Translations under genes and position numbers: made by a program
Notes under the pieces: generated by a model
Databases searched by the model: none
Told to the model about the DNA's origin: nothing
What the model saw: the letters and a program-made list of their open reading frames with translations, nothing else
Shown here: positions 19,250 to 20,650 of the stretch, piece after piece
How the letters are laid out: every line of letters begins with the position of its first letter
Position numbering within the stretch: the stretch's first letter is position 1
Assembly (NCBI GenBank): GCA_030827365.1
Contig: JAUREO010000004.1
Span: 1 to 62,986 of the forward strand
DNA from: Poseidonia sp.
GTDB lineage: Archaea > Thermoplasmatota > Poseidoniia > Poseidoniales > Poseidoniaceae
DNA: 62,986 nt
Direction: 5' to 3'

Positions 19250-20650
19250 CTATTCAGACAATTCTCTTGGGGGGGTGGTTTGGCGATGAATAATGTATCT
19301 CCACAAGTCTTTCTTGTCATCTGAACCTTTGACTCGTTGTATAACAACATTTGACTCTTTGGTAAAACGAGTGGACAATGCTCCTTCGATGATACCATCG
19401 TCCATTTCCCACATCGGAAGCGCATCGACATCATCAATTGGAGGGTGATTGAGCCCTACTCGCACATAGAAATCGGGGTCGACCTCATAATCAAGCGTAC
19501 CTAGGCCAGCATATTCCCACCAATCCATCATTTCATCGAGAAATTCAATATCGTTTTCTATGCCTCTCAATGAAAATGCAATCTCTTGGCCGACACGATT
19601 TCCAATTTGACGTAACATCCTTGAGATATCGATGCCCAAAACTTTCAAATTAGATAATTTTCCCTCAGAAAGTTTTCTTCTCGCTTCGTTCACTTCATGG
19701 CCTGCGGCGAAAAAGGCATCAGGATTGAACGGGGTGTCTTCTTCGGGTAATTCACCATCAAAACCTAAAGCAATTGATACATTCTTCAAAAACGAGCCTT
19801 CACCGATTGTTAAACGGAGAGGGTCATTGATTTGATTCTCAGTAAATCTTGCGACTGCAGTTTCAAACGAGACTGCCCCCTCCCAAATAGCGTCGATAAG
19901 GTTGAGGTGTGCCTCTGTGAAAGGCCCGGATTCAATGATGAGTGCAGCATCATCTTTGCCTCTGCCAACGGGGTTGTCCTCAATATTGAGGTATTGAACA
20001 ACTTCTTTTTGGTCCATGATAAACCCGAGGGAATCCAATTCTTCGGAGTGGCGAACTTCGATATCATCATGCAATTCGTTGAAGAAACGAATCGTTCTTC
20101 CATCGAGGTGGGTAATGATTTGGACGACGACGCCTTGAAGGGCTGCTGTGTTCACAGCTTCTAATGCATCAGGATTCCTGCACAAATGTAAAATTCCAAA
20201 TTGGCCGAGGAGGAGAATCAATTTTTCTTCCGCTTCTGTCGCCATTTTTCGAAGTCTGCTGTATATATGCGACCTTTCTTTGAGGACTGCAAAGCGAGGG
20301 TCATCAATGTCTCTTCGTTTCTTTTCGTATGAAGGAGTTTCATGGCTTATGTTCTTTGAAAGGTCCTCAAAACCTTCAACCAAACGACCCAACTGTTTTT
20401 TTCTTGCCTCAATAATGTGTTCCATTGCTTCATCAACCGTGAGGCTTGAGAACAGCATCGGTCGATCTGCTGTAGCGGTGACAATTCCCATTTCTTGTAA
20501 GCGAGAAAGGCTATTGTATGCATCTAATCGAGTTGTATTGAGTTGTTTAGCCAGTTCAGATGCCTTCATTTTTGGGTTTGAACCAAGGATCATGATTGAA
20601 CGGACTTCACGTTCACTGAGGCCAGCTTCCATGAGCAATTCTTGCCACAT
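19250..20650 (-). CDS. TrmB-family transcriptional regulator with an extra C-terminal V4R-like domain
   Basis: TrmB wHTH (GLSEREVRS...ASELAKQLNTTRLDAYNSLSRLQEMGIV...RPMLFS), central PLD-like effector domain, C-terminal IGNRVGQEIA...WWEYAGLG...GIIEGAL pattern. Confidence 0.88.
   Translation of the reverse strand: MWQELLMEAGLSEREVRSIMILGSNPKMKASELAKQLNTTRLDAYNSLSRLQEMGIVTATADRPMLFSSLTVDEAMEHIIEARKKQLGRLVEGFEDLSKNISHETPSYEKKRRDIDDPRFAVLKERSHIYSRLRKMATEAEEKLILLLGQFGILHLCRNPDALEAVNTAALQGVVVQIITHLDGRTIRFFNELHDDIEVRHSEELDSLGFIMDQKEVVQYLNIEDNPVGRGKDDAALIIESGPFTEAHLNLIDAIWEGAVSFETAVARFTENQINDPLRLTIGEGSFLKNVSIALGFDGELPEEDTPFNPDAFFAAGHEVNEARRKLSEGKLSNLKVLGIDISRMLRQIGNRVGQEIAFSLRGIENDIEFLDEMMDWWEYAGLGTLDYEVDPDFYVRVGLNHPPIDDVDALPMWEMDDGIIEGALSTRFTKESNVVIQRVKGSDDKKDLWRYIIHRQTTPPRELSE

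What the first reader, a model, noticed from the sequence alone, without database searches (positions are those of the whole stretch)
19250..20650. TrmB regulator with a third, V4R-like hydrophobic-ligand domain
Seen: after the wHTH and the PLD-like effector domain there are about 200 extra residues with L..IG..VG..IA...+..WW..AGLG.L...V.V...P.W...GII.GAL, and no cysteines in this domain. Established: that pattern recalls V4R/4VR small-molecule-binding domains, which bind aromatic or hydrocarbon effectors in XylR/DmpR; classical TrmBs sense sugars. Inference: it may sense an isoprenoid, carotenoid, quinone or flavin-type ligand and regulate the surrounding locus.
Basis: partly seen in the sequence, partly recalled or inferred. 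Interest (0 to 1): 0.7.

Follow-up and report, generated by a model that had tools for sequence, protein, structure and literature searches.

The report
TrmB regulator with zinc-less V4R sensor
This gene from marine group II archaea (Poseidoniales) encodes a DNA-binding regulator whose third domain really is a V4R-type small-molecule sensor that has lost its usual zinc-binding cysteines, and it sits inside a conserved sunlight-damage gene cluster that it probably controls.

Summary
ORF 19250-20650 (-) encodes 466 aa: a TrmB winged helix, a coiled coil, a PLD-like domain, a linker and a cysteine-free C-terminal domain of about 125 aa.

The V4R reading is supported by homology, although Pfam's V4R model does not hit this protein.
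- Full-length collinear relatives score above the Pfam V4R threshold.
- A profile of the marine-group-II C-termini matches a profile of those relatives at 99.4% probability (E 4e-21).
- NCBIfam MsvR hits residues 335-444.
- The family profile finds the solved V4R protein MJ1460.

The domain is a derived variant. The three conserved V4R cysteines, which bind zinc in MopR and sense redox in MsvR, are W414, V440 and W450 here. They are essentially never Cys in 150 orthologues. The Cys-less clade is monophyletic and nested among Cys-bearing paralogues.

The gene is single-copy and found in 156 of 201 sampled Poseidoniales genomes. Its cluster is fixed: ribA-bcp-regulator-ABC1-crtI-crtB, divergent from nudix-class II photolyase-SRPBCC/epimerase. 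Three promoters there share an ARACKR hexamer 3 nt upstream of a TATA box.

The most likely role is a local, ligand-responsive regulator of a photoprotection cluster. The ligand and DNA binding are untested. IMG already annotates the domain pair, so this is a new variant of a known kind.

The parts
19250..20650 (-). Whole gene: 466-aa TrmB-family regulator with a C-terminal V4R-type domain (P0001)
   Evidence: ORF list and translation. There are 531 homologues, all from Poseidoniales. It is single-copy in its own genome.
20441..20650 (-). Residues 1-70: TrmB-type winged helix-turn-helix
   Evidence: Pfam PF01978, E 1.7e-8, 34.6 bits, above the 25.6 cut-off. pLDDT is about 90.
20303..20440 (-). 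Residues 71-116: long helix (72-99, coiled-coil/dimerisation arm as in TrmB and TrmBL2) plus a variable loop
   Evidence: Model helix H72-99. Foldseek matches TrmBL2 and TrmB. This is the least conserved segment, with mean entropy 1.99.
19841..20302 (-). Residues 117-270: PLD-like domain, equivalent to the N-terminal half of the TrmB effector domain. It contains the only cysteine, C157.
   Evidence: Foldseek matches Nuc 1byr (E 6e-7), NucT, Zucchini and TrmB 2f5t. Relatives match Regulator_TrmB profile positions 2-137 of 233 only. H201 and D213 are invariant in 150 orthologues.
19658..19840 (-). Residues 271-331: linker with two helices and lower model confidence
   Evidence: pLDDT is 62-71; helices H287-294 and H310-328.
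19280..19657 (-). Residues 332-457: divergent, cysteine-free (zinc-less) V4R domain. The positions of the Cys triad are W414, V440 and W450.
   Evidence: NCBIfam MsvR hits residues 335-444 at E 6.5e-7. hhalign of the MGII-only profile against the Cys-form-only profile gives 99.4%, E 3.7e-21. The family profile hits MJ1460 (2osd) at E 1.5e-5. Secondary-structure order is helix-helix-strand-strand-helix-strand-strand.
21755..21771 (-). ribA-operon promoter: hexamer AGACGA (21771-21766), 3-nt spacer, TATA box TTTATATT (21762-21755). The TATA box starts 29 nt before the ribA ATG (21733), which suggests a leaderless mRNA.
   Evidence: Sequence. The block aaa..ACgaGt..TTATA is conserved in 70 orthologous loci. 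GACGAG-N2-TTTATAT occurs once in the 1.87-Mb genome.
21789..21805 (+). nudix-photolyase promoter: hexamer AAACTG (21789-21794), 3-nt spacer, TATA box TATATAAA (21798-21805). The TATA box starts 29 nt before the second ATG of the NUDIX frame (21827).
   Evidence: Sequence. The conserved block reads GTAT(A/T)T...(A/C)CNGTTT on the opposite strand in 70 loci.
19230..19246 (-). Internal promoter for ABC1-crtI-crtB: hexamer AAACGG (19246-19241), 3-nt spacer, TATA-like TTCAAATA (19237-19230). The TATA element starts 29 nt before the ABC1 ATG (19208).
   Evidence: Sequence. The consensus AAACgg...TT.AtATAct holds in the 35 loci where this gap is at least 40 nt, 32 of them distinct.
15286..25234 (.). 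Conserved cluster around the regulator. Minus strand: ribA 21134-21733, bcp 20651-21115, regulator, ABC1/UbiB-like 17913-19208, crtI 16297-17916, crtB 15286-16287. Plus strand: NUDIX 21812/21827-22333, class II photolyase 22330-23829, SRPBCC + YfcH-type epimerase 23843-25234.
   Evidence: Pfam and NCBIfam. Photolyase against PDB 2xry, E 1e-67. The same order is found in about 70 of 80 species-level Poseidoniaceae loci and partly in more distant loci L001-L004.

Best explanation
The gene encodes a one-component transcription regulator of Poseidoniales (Marine Group II archaea).

Shown here:
- It has a TrmB winged helix, a coiled-coil arm and a PLD-like domain, as in TrmB and TrmBL2.
- The sugar-binding barrel of classical TrmB is replaced by a V4R-type domain.
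- This V4R is a derived form in which the three zinc/redox cysteines are replaced by hydrophobic residues (W414, V440, W450).
- The Cys-less form arose once, from Cys-bearing paralogues.
- Since then it has stayed inside a fixed cluster: ribA-bcp-regulator-(ABC1)-crtI-crtB, divergent from nudix-class II photolyase-SRPBCC/epimerase.

Inferred:
- A homodimer binds the ARACKR hexamers that sit 3 nt upstream of the TATA boxes of the cluster's three promoters. One of these drives its own operon, so it would be autoregulated.
- Binding at this BRE-proximal position would modulate TFB/TBP recruitment.
- Occupancy of the V4R pocket by a small hydrophobic or aromatic molecule would switch DNA binding. 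Candidates linked to light or photo-oxidative stress are a flavin or deazaflavin derivative, a carotenoid or prenyl intermediate, or a lipid oxidation product.
- Thiol- or zinc-based redox sensing of the MsvR type is excluded for this domain.
For: Architecture:
- PF01978 above its cut-off.
- AF2 model with pLDDT 83.
- Foldseek matches to TrmBL2, TrmB and Nuc.

V4R homology:
- MsvR model hits residues 335-444 at E 6.5e-7.
- Collinear relatives P0153 and P0159 score 55 and 63 bits on PF02830, cut-off 31. BLASTP to them gives 7e-41 and 1e-38, running through the C-terminus.
- hhalign gives 99.4%, E 3.7e-21.
- The family profile hits the solved V4R protein MJ1460 at E 1.5e-5, followed by weak H-NOX and TRAPPC3 hits from the same fold class.

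Cys triad:
- The spacing 26/8 is identical in MopR zinc ligands C155/C181/C189 (PMC9556785), in MaMsvR C206/C232/C240 (PMC3729527) and in the Cys-bearing paralogues.
- In 150 orthologues, positions 1 and 2 are never Cys and position 3 is Cys in 5.
- The Cys-less clade is monophyletic at 100/100 support and nested among Cys forms.

Functional link:
- Gene order is conserved in about 70 of 80 species loci, in a 56%-identical relative, and as ribA-bcp-regulator in a 43%-identical relative.
- The gene is present in 156 of 201 sampled genomes and 21 of 24 genera of the order, and in 325 species genomes overall.
- Between genera it is better conserved (about 83% identity) than its neighbours (60-80%).

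Promoters:
- Three promoters each have a TATA box starting 29 nt from the start codon and an ARACKR hexamer 3 nt upstream of it.
- The hexamer is not a general TATA-proximal feature of this genome: 2 of 69 candidate promoters carry it, and one of those is in the cluster.
Against: - There is no experimental or transcript evidence that the protein binds these promoters.
- The shared hexamer could be a locus-specific BRE variant or inherited promoter sequence rather than an operator.
- A genome-wide scan for the element was at chance level (31 hits against 16-27 in shuffles), so no regulon beyond the cluster is defined.
- Pfam's V4R model does not hit this protein at all.
- No domain-level structural comparison of residues 332-457 could be made. 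Full-length Foldseek lists only N-terminal matches in its top 50.
- No pocket analysis was possible, so ligand binding is purely inferred from family precedent.
- Loss of the zinc site might mean the domain has lost sensing altogether.
Confidence: 0.55

Rival explanations
1. The V4R domain is a degenerate relic that serves only as a structural or oligomerisation module. The protein would then act as a constitutive or chromatin-like DNA binder similar to TrmBL2, or sense its signal elsewhere, for example through the PLD-like domain.
For: The best structural matches for the first 270 residues are TrmBL2 chains (E 6e-13), and TrmBL2 is a ligand-independent chromatin protein. The canonical zinc site is gone. 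Pfam V4R no longer detects the domain.
Against: The domain is under purifying selection as strong as the PLD-like domain: 23 of 126 columns are invariant and mean entropy is 0.94 against 0.86. In MopR the zinc site is about 10 Å from the ligand pocket and is considered structural (PMC9556785), so losing it need not abolish ligand binding. The strict single-locus synteny fits a dedicated local regulator better than a global chromatin protein.
Confidence: 0.17
2. It is a thiol-based redox or oxidative-stress sensor working like MsvR, which would fit the adjacent peroxiredoxin.
For: The best NCBIfam match for the C-terminus is MsvR. MsvR regulates oxidative-stress genes and its own promoter (PMC3729527). 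A bcp gene directly abuts the regulator gene.
Against: The V4R domain has no cysteine. The three MsvR redox cysteines are W414, V440 and W450. The single cysteine, C157, is replaced by N or H in some orthologues. The MsvR score is 29 bits against a cut-off of 220.
Confidence: 0.05
3. It is a classical sugar-sensing TrmB controlling carbohydrate metabolism, and the neighbourhood is coincidental.
For: The wHTH and the PLD-like half of the effector domain belong to the TrmB family. Automated names say 'sugar-specific'.
Against: The C-terminal sugar-binding half of Regulator_TrmB is absent: relatives match only profile positions 2-137 of 233. No sugar transporter or glycolytic gene is in the conserved neighbourhood. 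The gene order is conserved across genera and families of the order.
Confidence: 0.03

Closest known systems
TrmB / TrmBL1 / TrmBL2 of Thermococcales and TrmB of Halobacterium (PDB 3qph, 2f5t, 5bpd)
   Same: It shares the N-terminal TrmB winged helix, the long dimerisation helix and the PLD-like domain. Foldseek gives E 6e-13 to 2.6e-10 over 250-275 columns, and PF01978 is above threshold.
   Different: Sugar-sensing TrmBs have a C-terminal beta-barrel sugar-binding subdomain, which is missing here and replaced by a linker plus a V4R domain. There are no sugar genes nearby. TrmBL2 has no third domain at all.
MsvR (methanogen-specific V4R-domain regulator)
   Same: It is a one-component archaeal regulator with an HTH plus a C-terminal V4R domain, linked to oxidative-stress genes and probably autoregulated. 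It is the best NCBIfam match for residues 335-444.
   Different: MsvR has an ArsR-type HTH and no PLD-like domain. It depends on three conserved V4R cysteines (PMC3729527), all replaced here. The score is far below the family cut-off (29 against 220 bits).
Phenol/aromatic sensor domains of XylR, DmpR, MopR and PoxR (V4R-containing A domain)
   Same: They use the same V4R superfamily as a small-hydrophobic-ligand sensor controlling a transcription factor. The Cys spacing 26/8 of the MopR zinc ligands aligns with the triad positions.
   Different: Those are bacterial sigma-54 enhancer-binding proteins with an extra XylR_N part, an AAA+ ATPase and a structural zinc site. This protein is an archaeal TrmB with no zinc ligands.
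Cys-bearing TrmB-PLD-V4R paralogues (P0124, P0153, P0159 types; uncharacterised)
   Same: They have the same three-domain architecture and are full-length collinear at 25-34% identity. Some Poseidoniales genomes carry both forms.
   Different: They keep the Cys triad, are detected by Pfam V4R, and lie next to an Fe-S_biosyn (A-type carrier) gene instead of the photoprotection cluster.
MJ1460 (PDB 2osd/2oso), stand-alone V4R protein
   Same: It is the only significant solved-structure match for the C-terminal family profile: E 1.5e-5 over 100 residues.
   Different: It is a single-domain protein of unknown function, and it retains the last two cysteines of the triad.

Membership tests
TrmB family of archaeal regulators | TrmB-type winged helix (Pfam PF01978) above the gathering score | tested here: met
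   34.6 bits against 25.6, residues 7-68
TrmB family of archaeal regulators | wHTH + dimerisation helix + PLD-like domain fold as in solved TrmB and TrmBL2 | tested here: met
   Foldseek: 5bpd E 6e-13, 3qph E 2.6e-10, 1byr E 6e-7, on a model with pLDDT 83
TrmB family of archaeal regulators | Complete sugar-binding effector domain (both halves of Regulator_TrmB PF11495) | tested here: not met
   P0001 has no PF11495 hit. Relatives match only profile positions 2-137 of 233. The C-terminal half is replaced by V4R.
TrmB family of archaeal regulators | DNA binding modulated by sugars | not testable with these tools
   This needs biochemistry.
V4R domain (Pfam PF02830 / COG1719) | Match to the Pfam V4R model at or above the gathering score | tested here: not met
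   There is no hit even at E<=10 for the isolated C-terminus and none in any listed MGII orthologue. Homologues P0153, P0159 and P0162 do pass, at 55, 63 and 31 bits.
V4R domain (Pfam PF02830 / COG1719) | Demonstrable homology to bona fide V4R domains | tested here: met
   hhalign 99.4%, E 3.7e-21 over 129 columns. MsvR model E 6.5e-7. Family profile against 2osd, E 1.5e-5. IMG gives the COG1719 name.
V4R domain (Pfam PF02830 / COG1719) | Alpha/beta fold of the V4R/Bet3/H-NOX class | tested here: inconclusive
   The model has helices 342-360 and 367-380, strands 384-389 and 395-400, helix 413-429, and strands 435-445 and 448-456, which fits.
V4R domain (Pfam PF02830 / COG1719) | Cluster of three conserved cysteines (zinc ligands in MopR, redox cysteines in MsvR) | tested here: not met
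   The positions are W414, V440 and W450. In 150 orthologues Cys occurs 0, 0 and 5 times at the three positions. Reference spacing comes from PMC9556785 and PMC3729527.
V4R domain (Pfam PF02830 / COG1719) | Binds a small hydrophobic ligand | not testable with these tools
MsvR (NCBIfam NF053755) | Equivalog score of at least 220 bits; ArsR-type HTH + V4R; found in methanogens | tested here: not met
   29.3 bits, covering the C-terminal half only. The organism is a Poseidoniales archaeon.

The most novel reading that the evidence does not exclude
The zinc-less V4R domain binds a light-derived or light-absorbing small molecule, such as a flavin or deazaflavin (FO/8-HDF) derivative or a carotenoid or retinal-pathway intermediate. 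The protein would then be the master switch of a photoprotection regulon (photolyase, peroxiredoxin, flavin supply, carotenoids) in the most abundant planktonic archaea of the surface ocean. That would be a previously uncharacterised class of archaeal light or photo-oxidative-stress regulator acting through BRE-proximal ARACKR sites.
Probability: 0.15. Interest if true: 0.8.

Novelty: new variant of a known kind. Interest (0 to 1): 0.5.

Why it matters
Poseidoniales are among the most abundant archaea of the sunlit ocean and remain uncultured, and almost nothing is known about how they regulate genes. This protein is a near-universal, single-copy regulator locked into a cluster for UV repair, peroxide removal, flavin supply and carotenoid synthesis. 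That gives a concrete, testable entry point: one protein, three short promoters and a defined sensor domain.

It also gives a natural experiment on the V4R fold. Paired paralogues exist with and without the zinc/redox cysteine triad, which bears on what that triad is for. No function has been tested for any member of the TrmB-PLD-V4R architecture, as far as the searched literature shows.

Tried and rejected
- Single-sequence AlphaFold2 gave pLDDT 35 and was unusable.
- Pfam on the isolated C-terminal 193 residues and on the middle domain gave nothing, or only PLDc_2 at E 0.18.
- phmmer and the full-length family profile against PDB gave only weak, presumably spurious peroxiredoxin matches to residues 206-270 and weak HTH hits.
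- Full-length Foldseek listed only N-terminal-domain matches, so it could not test the V4R fold.
- The search for related loci with the divergent alignment A3 failed for lack of a conserved peptide stretch. A1 worked.
- A second profile search of the large protein database returned only the same MGII proteins.
- A genome-wide regex scan for ARACGR-N2-5-TATA was at chance level (31 hits against 16-27 in shuffles). It gave only one promoter look-alike, at C27:23033 upstream of an acidic 156-aa protein. No wider regulon is claimed.
- I considered reading the CCGTTT...GAACGAG pair in the divergent region as one long palindromic operator. I could not separate that from two independent promoter-proximal elements.
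- Literature searches for V4R+TrmB and Poseidoniales+TrmB found no description of this protein.
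Full report
**What is there**

The minus-strand ORF 19250..20650 encodes a 466-aa protein, P0001.
- Pfam finds only a TrmB winged helix: PF01978, residues 7-68, 34.6 bits against a cut-off of 25.6.
- The quoted sequence pattern is present literally.
- The only cysteine is C157, in the middle domain, so the C-terminal part is cysteine-free.
- Homologues number in the hundreds and all come from Poseidoniales (Marine Group II archaea). IMG already names several 'sugar-specific transcriptional regulator TrmB/predicted hydrocarbon binding protein', which is COG1378 + COG1719 (V4R).

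**Fold of the first two-thirds**

A single-sequence model was useless, with pLDDT 35. A model built with 60 homologues reached pLDDT 83. Foldseek against the PDB gave:
- TrmBL2 (5bpd, E 6e-13) and TrmB (3qph, E 2.6e-10) over 250-275 columns;
- PLD-family nucleases (Nuc 1byr E 6e-7, NucT, Zucchini) for the middle domain.

So residues 1-270 are a TrmBL2-like unit: winged helix, long dimerisation helix (72-99) and a PLD-like domain. The sugar-binding second half of the classical TrmB effector domain is absent. Relatives match only positions 2-137 of the 233-position Regulator_TrmB profile.

**Is the third domain V4R?**

Direct Pfam evidence is negative. The isolated C-terminus has no hit even at E<=10. 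Four independent lines nevertheless support homology.

1. NCBIfam's MsvR model (methanogen-specific V4R regulator) hits residues 335-444 against profile positions 119-228 at E 6.5e-7.
2. An exhaustive search found full-length relatives at 25-37% identity.
   - P0153, P0159 and P0162 carry TrmB plus PF02830 V4R at 55, 63 and 31 bits (cut-off 31). P0153 and P0162 also match Regulator_TrmB over its N-terminal half.
   - Their BLASTP alignments to P0001 (7e-41, 1e-38; 7e-86 for P0124) are collinear through the C-terminus.
3. A profile of eight MGII C-termini against a profile of ten Cys-bearing C-termini gives hhalign probability 99.4%, E 3.7e-21, over 129 columns.
4. The joint C-terminal profile hits the solved V4R protein MJ1460 (2osd/2oso) at E 1.5e-5. 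Weak H-NOX and TRAPPC3 hits follow, and these are the known structural relatives of V4R (the relationship is stated in PMC5847659).

The modelled secondary structure of residues 342-456 is helix, helix, two strands, helix, two strands, at pLDDT 80-88, which fits that fold class. I could not run a domain-level structure search. The fold is therefore inferred from homology rather than shown.

**What is different: a zinc-less V4R**

V4R domains carry three conserved cysteines (PMC5847659).
- In MopR they are the zinc ligands C155, C181 and C189 of a structural site about 10 Å from the phenol pocket (PMC9556785).
- In MaMsvR they are C206, C232 and C240, which modulate redox-dependent DNA binding (PMC3729527).
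- The 26/8 spacing is identical in the Cys-bearing TrmB-V4R relatives.

In P0001 these positions are W414, V440 and W450. Across 150 orthologues the residues are:

| Triad position | Residues in 150 orthologues |
|---|---|
| 1 | W 110, S 23, F 9, H 4, T 3, A 1 |
| 2 | V, E, I, L, A or T |
| 3 | W 105, S 40, C 5 |

A maximum-likelihood tree puts the Cys-less proteins, including the 43%-identical P0123, in one clade with 100/100 support. That clade is nested among Cys-bearing forms. The triad was therefore lost once. The domain is still under purifying selection comparable to the PLD-like domain: 23 of 126 columns invariant, with mean entropy 0.94 against 0.86.

**Distribution and context**

- The gene is single-copy in its own 1.87-Mb genome.
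- It is present in 156 of 201 sampled genomes and 21 of 24 genera of the order.
- 325 species-level genomes hold a relative.
- Some genomes also carry a paralogue at about 35% identity. That identity level matches the Cys-bearing P0124 type, but the residues of these second copies were not examined.

In about 70 of 80 species loci the order is identical:

SRPBCC/YfcH-epimerase < class II photolyase < NUDIX <> RibA > Bcp > regulator > ABC1/UbiB-like > CrtI > CrtB

- A 56%-identical relative keeps everything except ABC1 and CrtB.
- The 43%-identical P0123 keeps RibA-Bcp-regulator.
- Cys-bearing relatives sit elsewhere, next to an Fe-S_biosyn A-type carrier gene.
- The 499-aa neighbour has no Pfam hit but is a class II CPD photolyase: 2xry E 1e-67, TIGR00591 E 3e-105.
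- Between genera the regulator is about 83% identical, while its neighbours are 60-80% identical.

**Promoters**

The bcp stop abuts the regulator's ATG, and ABC1, crtI and crtB overlap or nearly touch. The unit therefore looks like an operon driven from the divergent gap. In that gap and upstream of ABC1 there are three TATA boxes. Each starts exactly 29 nt before a start codon, and each is preceded, after 3 nt, by a related hexamer.

| Promoter | Hexamer | TATA element | Start codon |
|---|---|---|---|
| ribA operon (-) | AGACGA 21771-21766 | TTTATATT 21762-21755 | 21733 |
| nudix-photolyase (+) | AAACTG 21789-21794 | TATATAAA 21798-21805 | 21827 |
| ABC1-crtI-crtB (-) | AAACGG 19246-19241 | TTCAAATA 19237-19230 | 19208 |

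For NUDIX the relevant ATG is the second one in the frame, which orthologues also favour as the true start.

- In 70 orthologous divergent regions, the blocks GTTT-N4-CC and AAA-N2-ACGAG-N3-TTATA are the conserved islands in otherwise variable sequence.
- AAACGG-N3-TATA is conserved upstream of ABC1 in the 35 loci where that gap is at least 40 nt (32 distinct sequences).
- The hexamer is not a general TATA-proximal feature. Only 2 of 69 candidate leaderless promoters in the genome carry it, and one of those is the ABC1 promoter itself.
- GACGAG-N2-TTTATAT is unique in the genome.
- A looser genome-wide scan is at chance level, so I claim no regulon beyond the cluster.

These hexamers are candidate half-sites for the regulator. 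They could also be a locus-specific BRE variant. Nothing here shows binding.

**Most likely mechanism**

Shown:
- the architecture;
- V4R homology;
- loss of the Cys triad;
- monophyly of the Cys-less clade;
- conserved synteny;
- the shared promoter element.

Inferred:
- A dimer binds the BRE-proximal hexamers of its own operon and of the two other units.
- It modulates TFB/TBP access there.
- It is switched by a small hydrophobic or aromatic ligand in the V4R pocket.

Cysteine- or zinc-based redox sensing is excluded for this domain. The context points to a light or photo-oxidative-stress signal. Photolyase needs FAD and a deazaflavin antenna, RibA feeds both, Bcp removes peroxides, and CrtB/CrtI make carotenoids. 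The cofactor statement is from my own knowledge of class II photolyases and was not tested here.

The rivals are a relic or structural domain on a constitutive binder, an MsvR-like thiol sensor, and a sugar-sensing TrmB. Each is set out in its own section.

**Novelty**

The domain combination is already recognised by automated annotation (IMG names, Pfam architectures of relatives). V4R-containing regulators such as MsvR, XylR, DmpR and MopR are established. Three things are new here:
- This abundant archaeal lineage uses a monophyletic, zinc-less V4R variant that Pfam misses.
- The variant is locked into a conserved photoprotection cluster.
- The cluster's promoters share a specific element.

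I found no paper describing it. Notes from earlier readers and one follow-up agent in this scan describe the same cluster in other genomes. They agree with what I derived independently but are not independent evidence.

Noticed in passing
window 21812-21829 (+): The NUDIX gene probably starts at the second ATG (21827, residue M6 of the listed ORF), not at 21812. The TATA box at 21798-21805 starts 29 nt before 21827, and orthologue alignments begin at residues 5-6.
   Followed up: partly
window 22330-23829 (+): This 499-aa protein has no Pfam hit at E<=0.001. It is nevertheless clearly a class II CPD photolyase: PDB 2xry E 1e-67 and TIGR00591 E 3e-105, although that score (353 bits) is below the model's 550-bit cut-off.
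   Followed up: yes
L005 8001-9799; L006 7487-9410; L007 800-2723: Cys-bearing TrmB-PLD-V4R paralogues (P0124, P0159) sit next to an Fe-S_biosyn (PF01521, A-type Fe-S carrier) gene, either downstream or divergent. This hints that the ancestral Cys form is an Fe-S or redox-linked regulator.
   Followed up: no
window 20651-21115 (-): The Bcp-type peroxiredoxin reads FYSRHGSPTCKRGC around its peroxidatic cysteine, with Ser where BCPs usually have Pro in PxxxT/SxxC, and a CxxxC spacing. Its stop codon directly abuts the regulator's ATG. It matches AhpC-TSA at E 1.6e-26 but scores below every NCBIfam equivalog cut-off.
   Followed up: no
genome contig C27, around 23033 (-): A promoter look-alike, GAAAACGATGGTTTATATTTGAATGG...ATG, closely resembles the ribA promoter. 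It lies upstream of a very acidic 156-aa protein of unknown function.
   Followed up: partly
L004 8001-9521 (P0123): This 43%-identical member of the Cys-less clade has an insertion of about 30 residues, rich in Gly, Asp and Ala, in the loop between the second strand and the following helix of the V4R domain. Its gene keeps only ribA-bcp as neighbours.
   Followed up: no
window 19841-20302 (-), residues H201, D213, W256: H201 and D213 are invariant in 150 orthologues. H201 and W256 are nearly invariant (>=90%) and D213 invariant across 60 distant TrmB-PLD proteins with different C-termini. There is no HxK motif, so these may be a remnant of the PLD active-site region or a conserved structural or ligand contact.
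   Followed up: no
window 23843-25234 (+): This is a fusion of an SRPBCC/polyketide-cyclase-like N-terminal part with a YfcH-type (TIGR01777) epimerase. It also matches the cyanobacterial thylakoid protein ThyD model at E 8e-72. It is conserved at the end of the photolyase arm.
   Followed up: no
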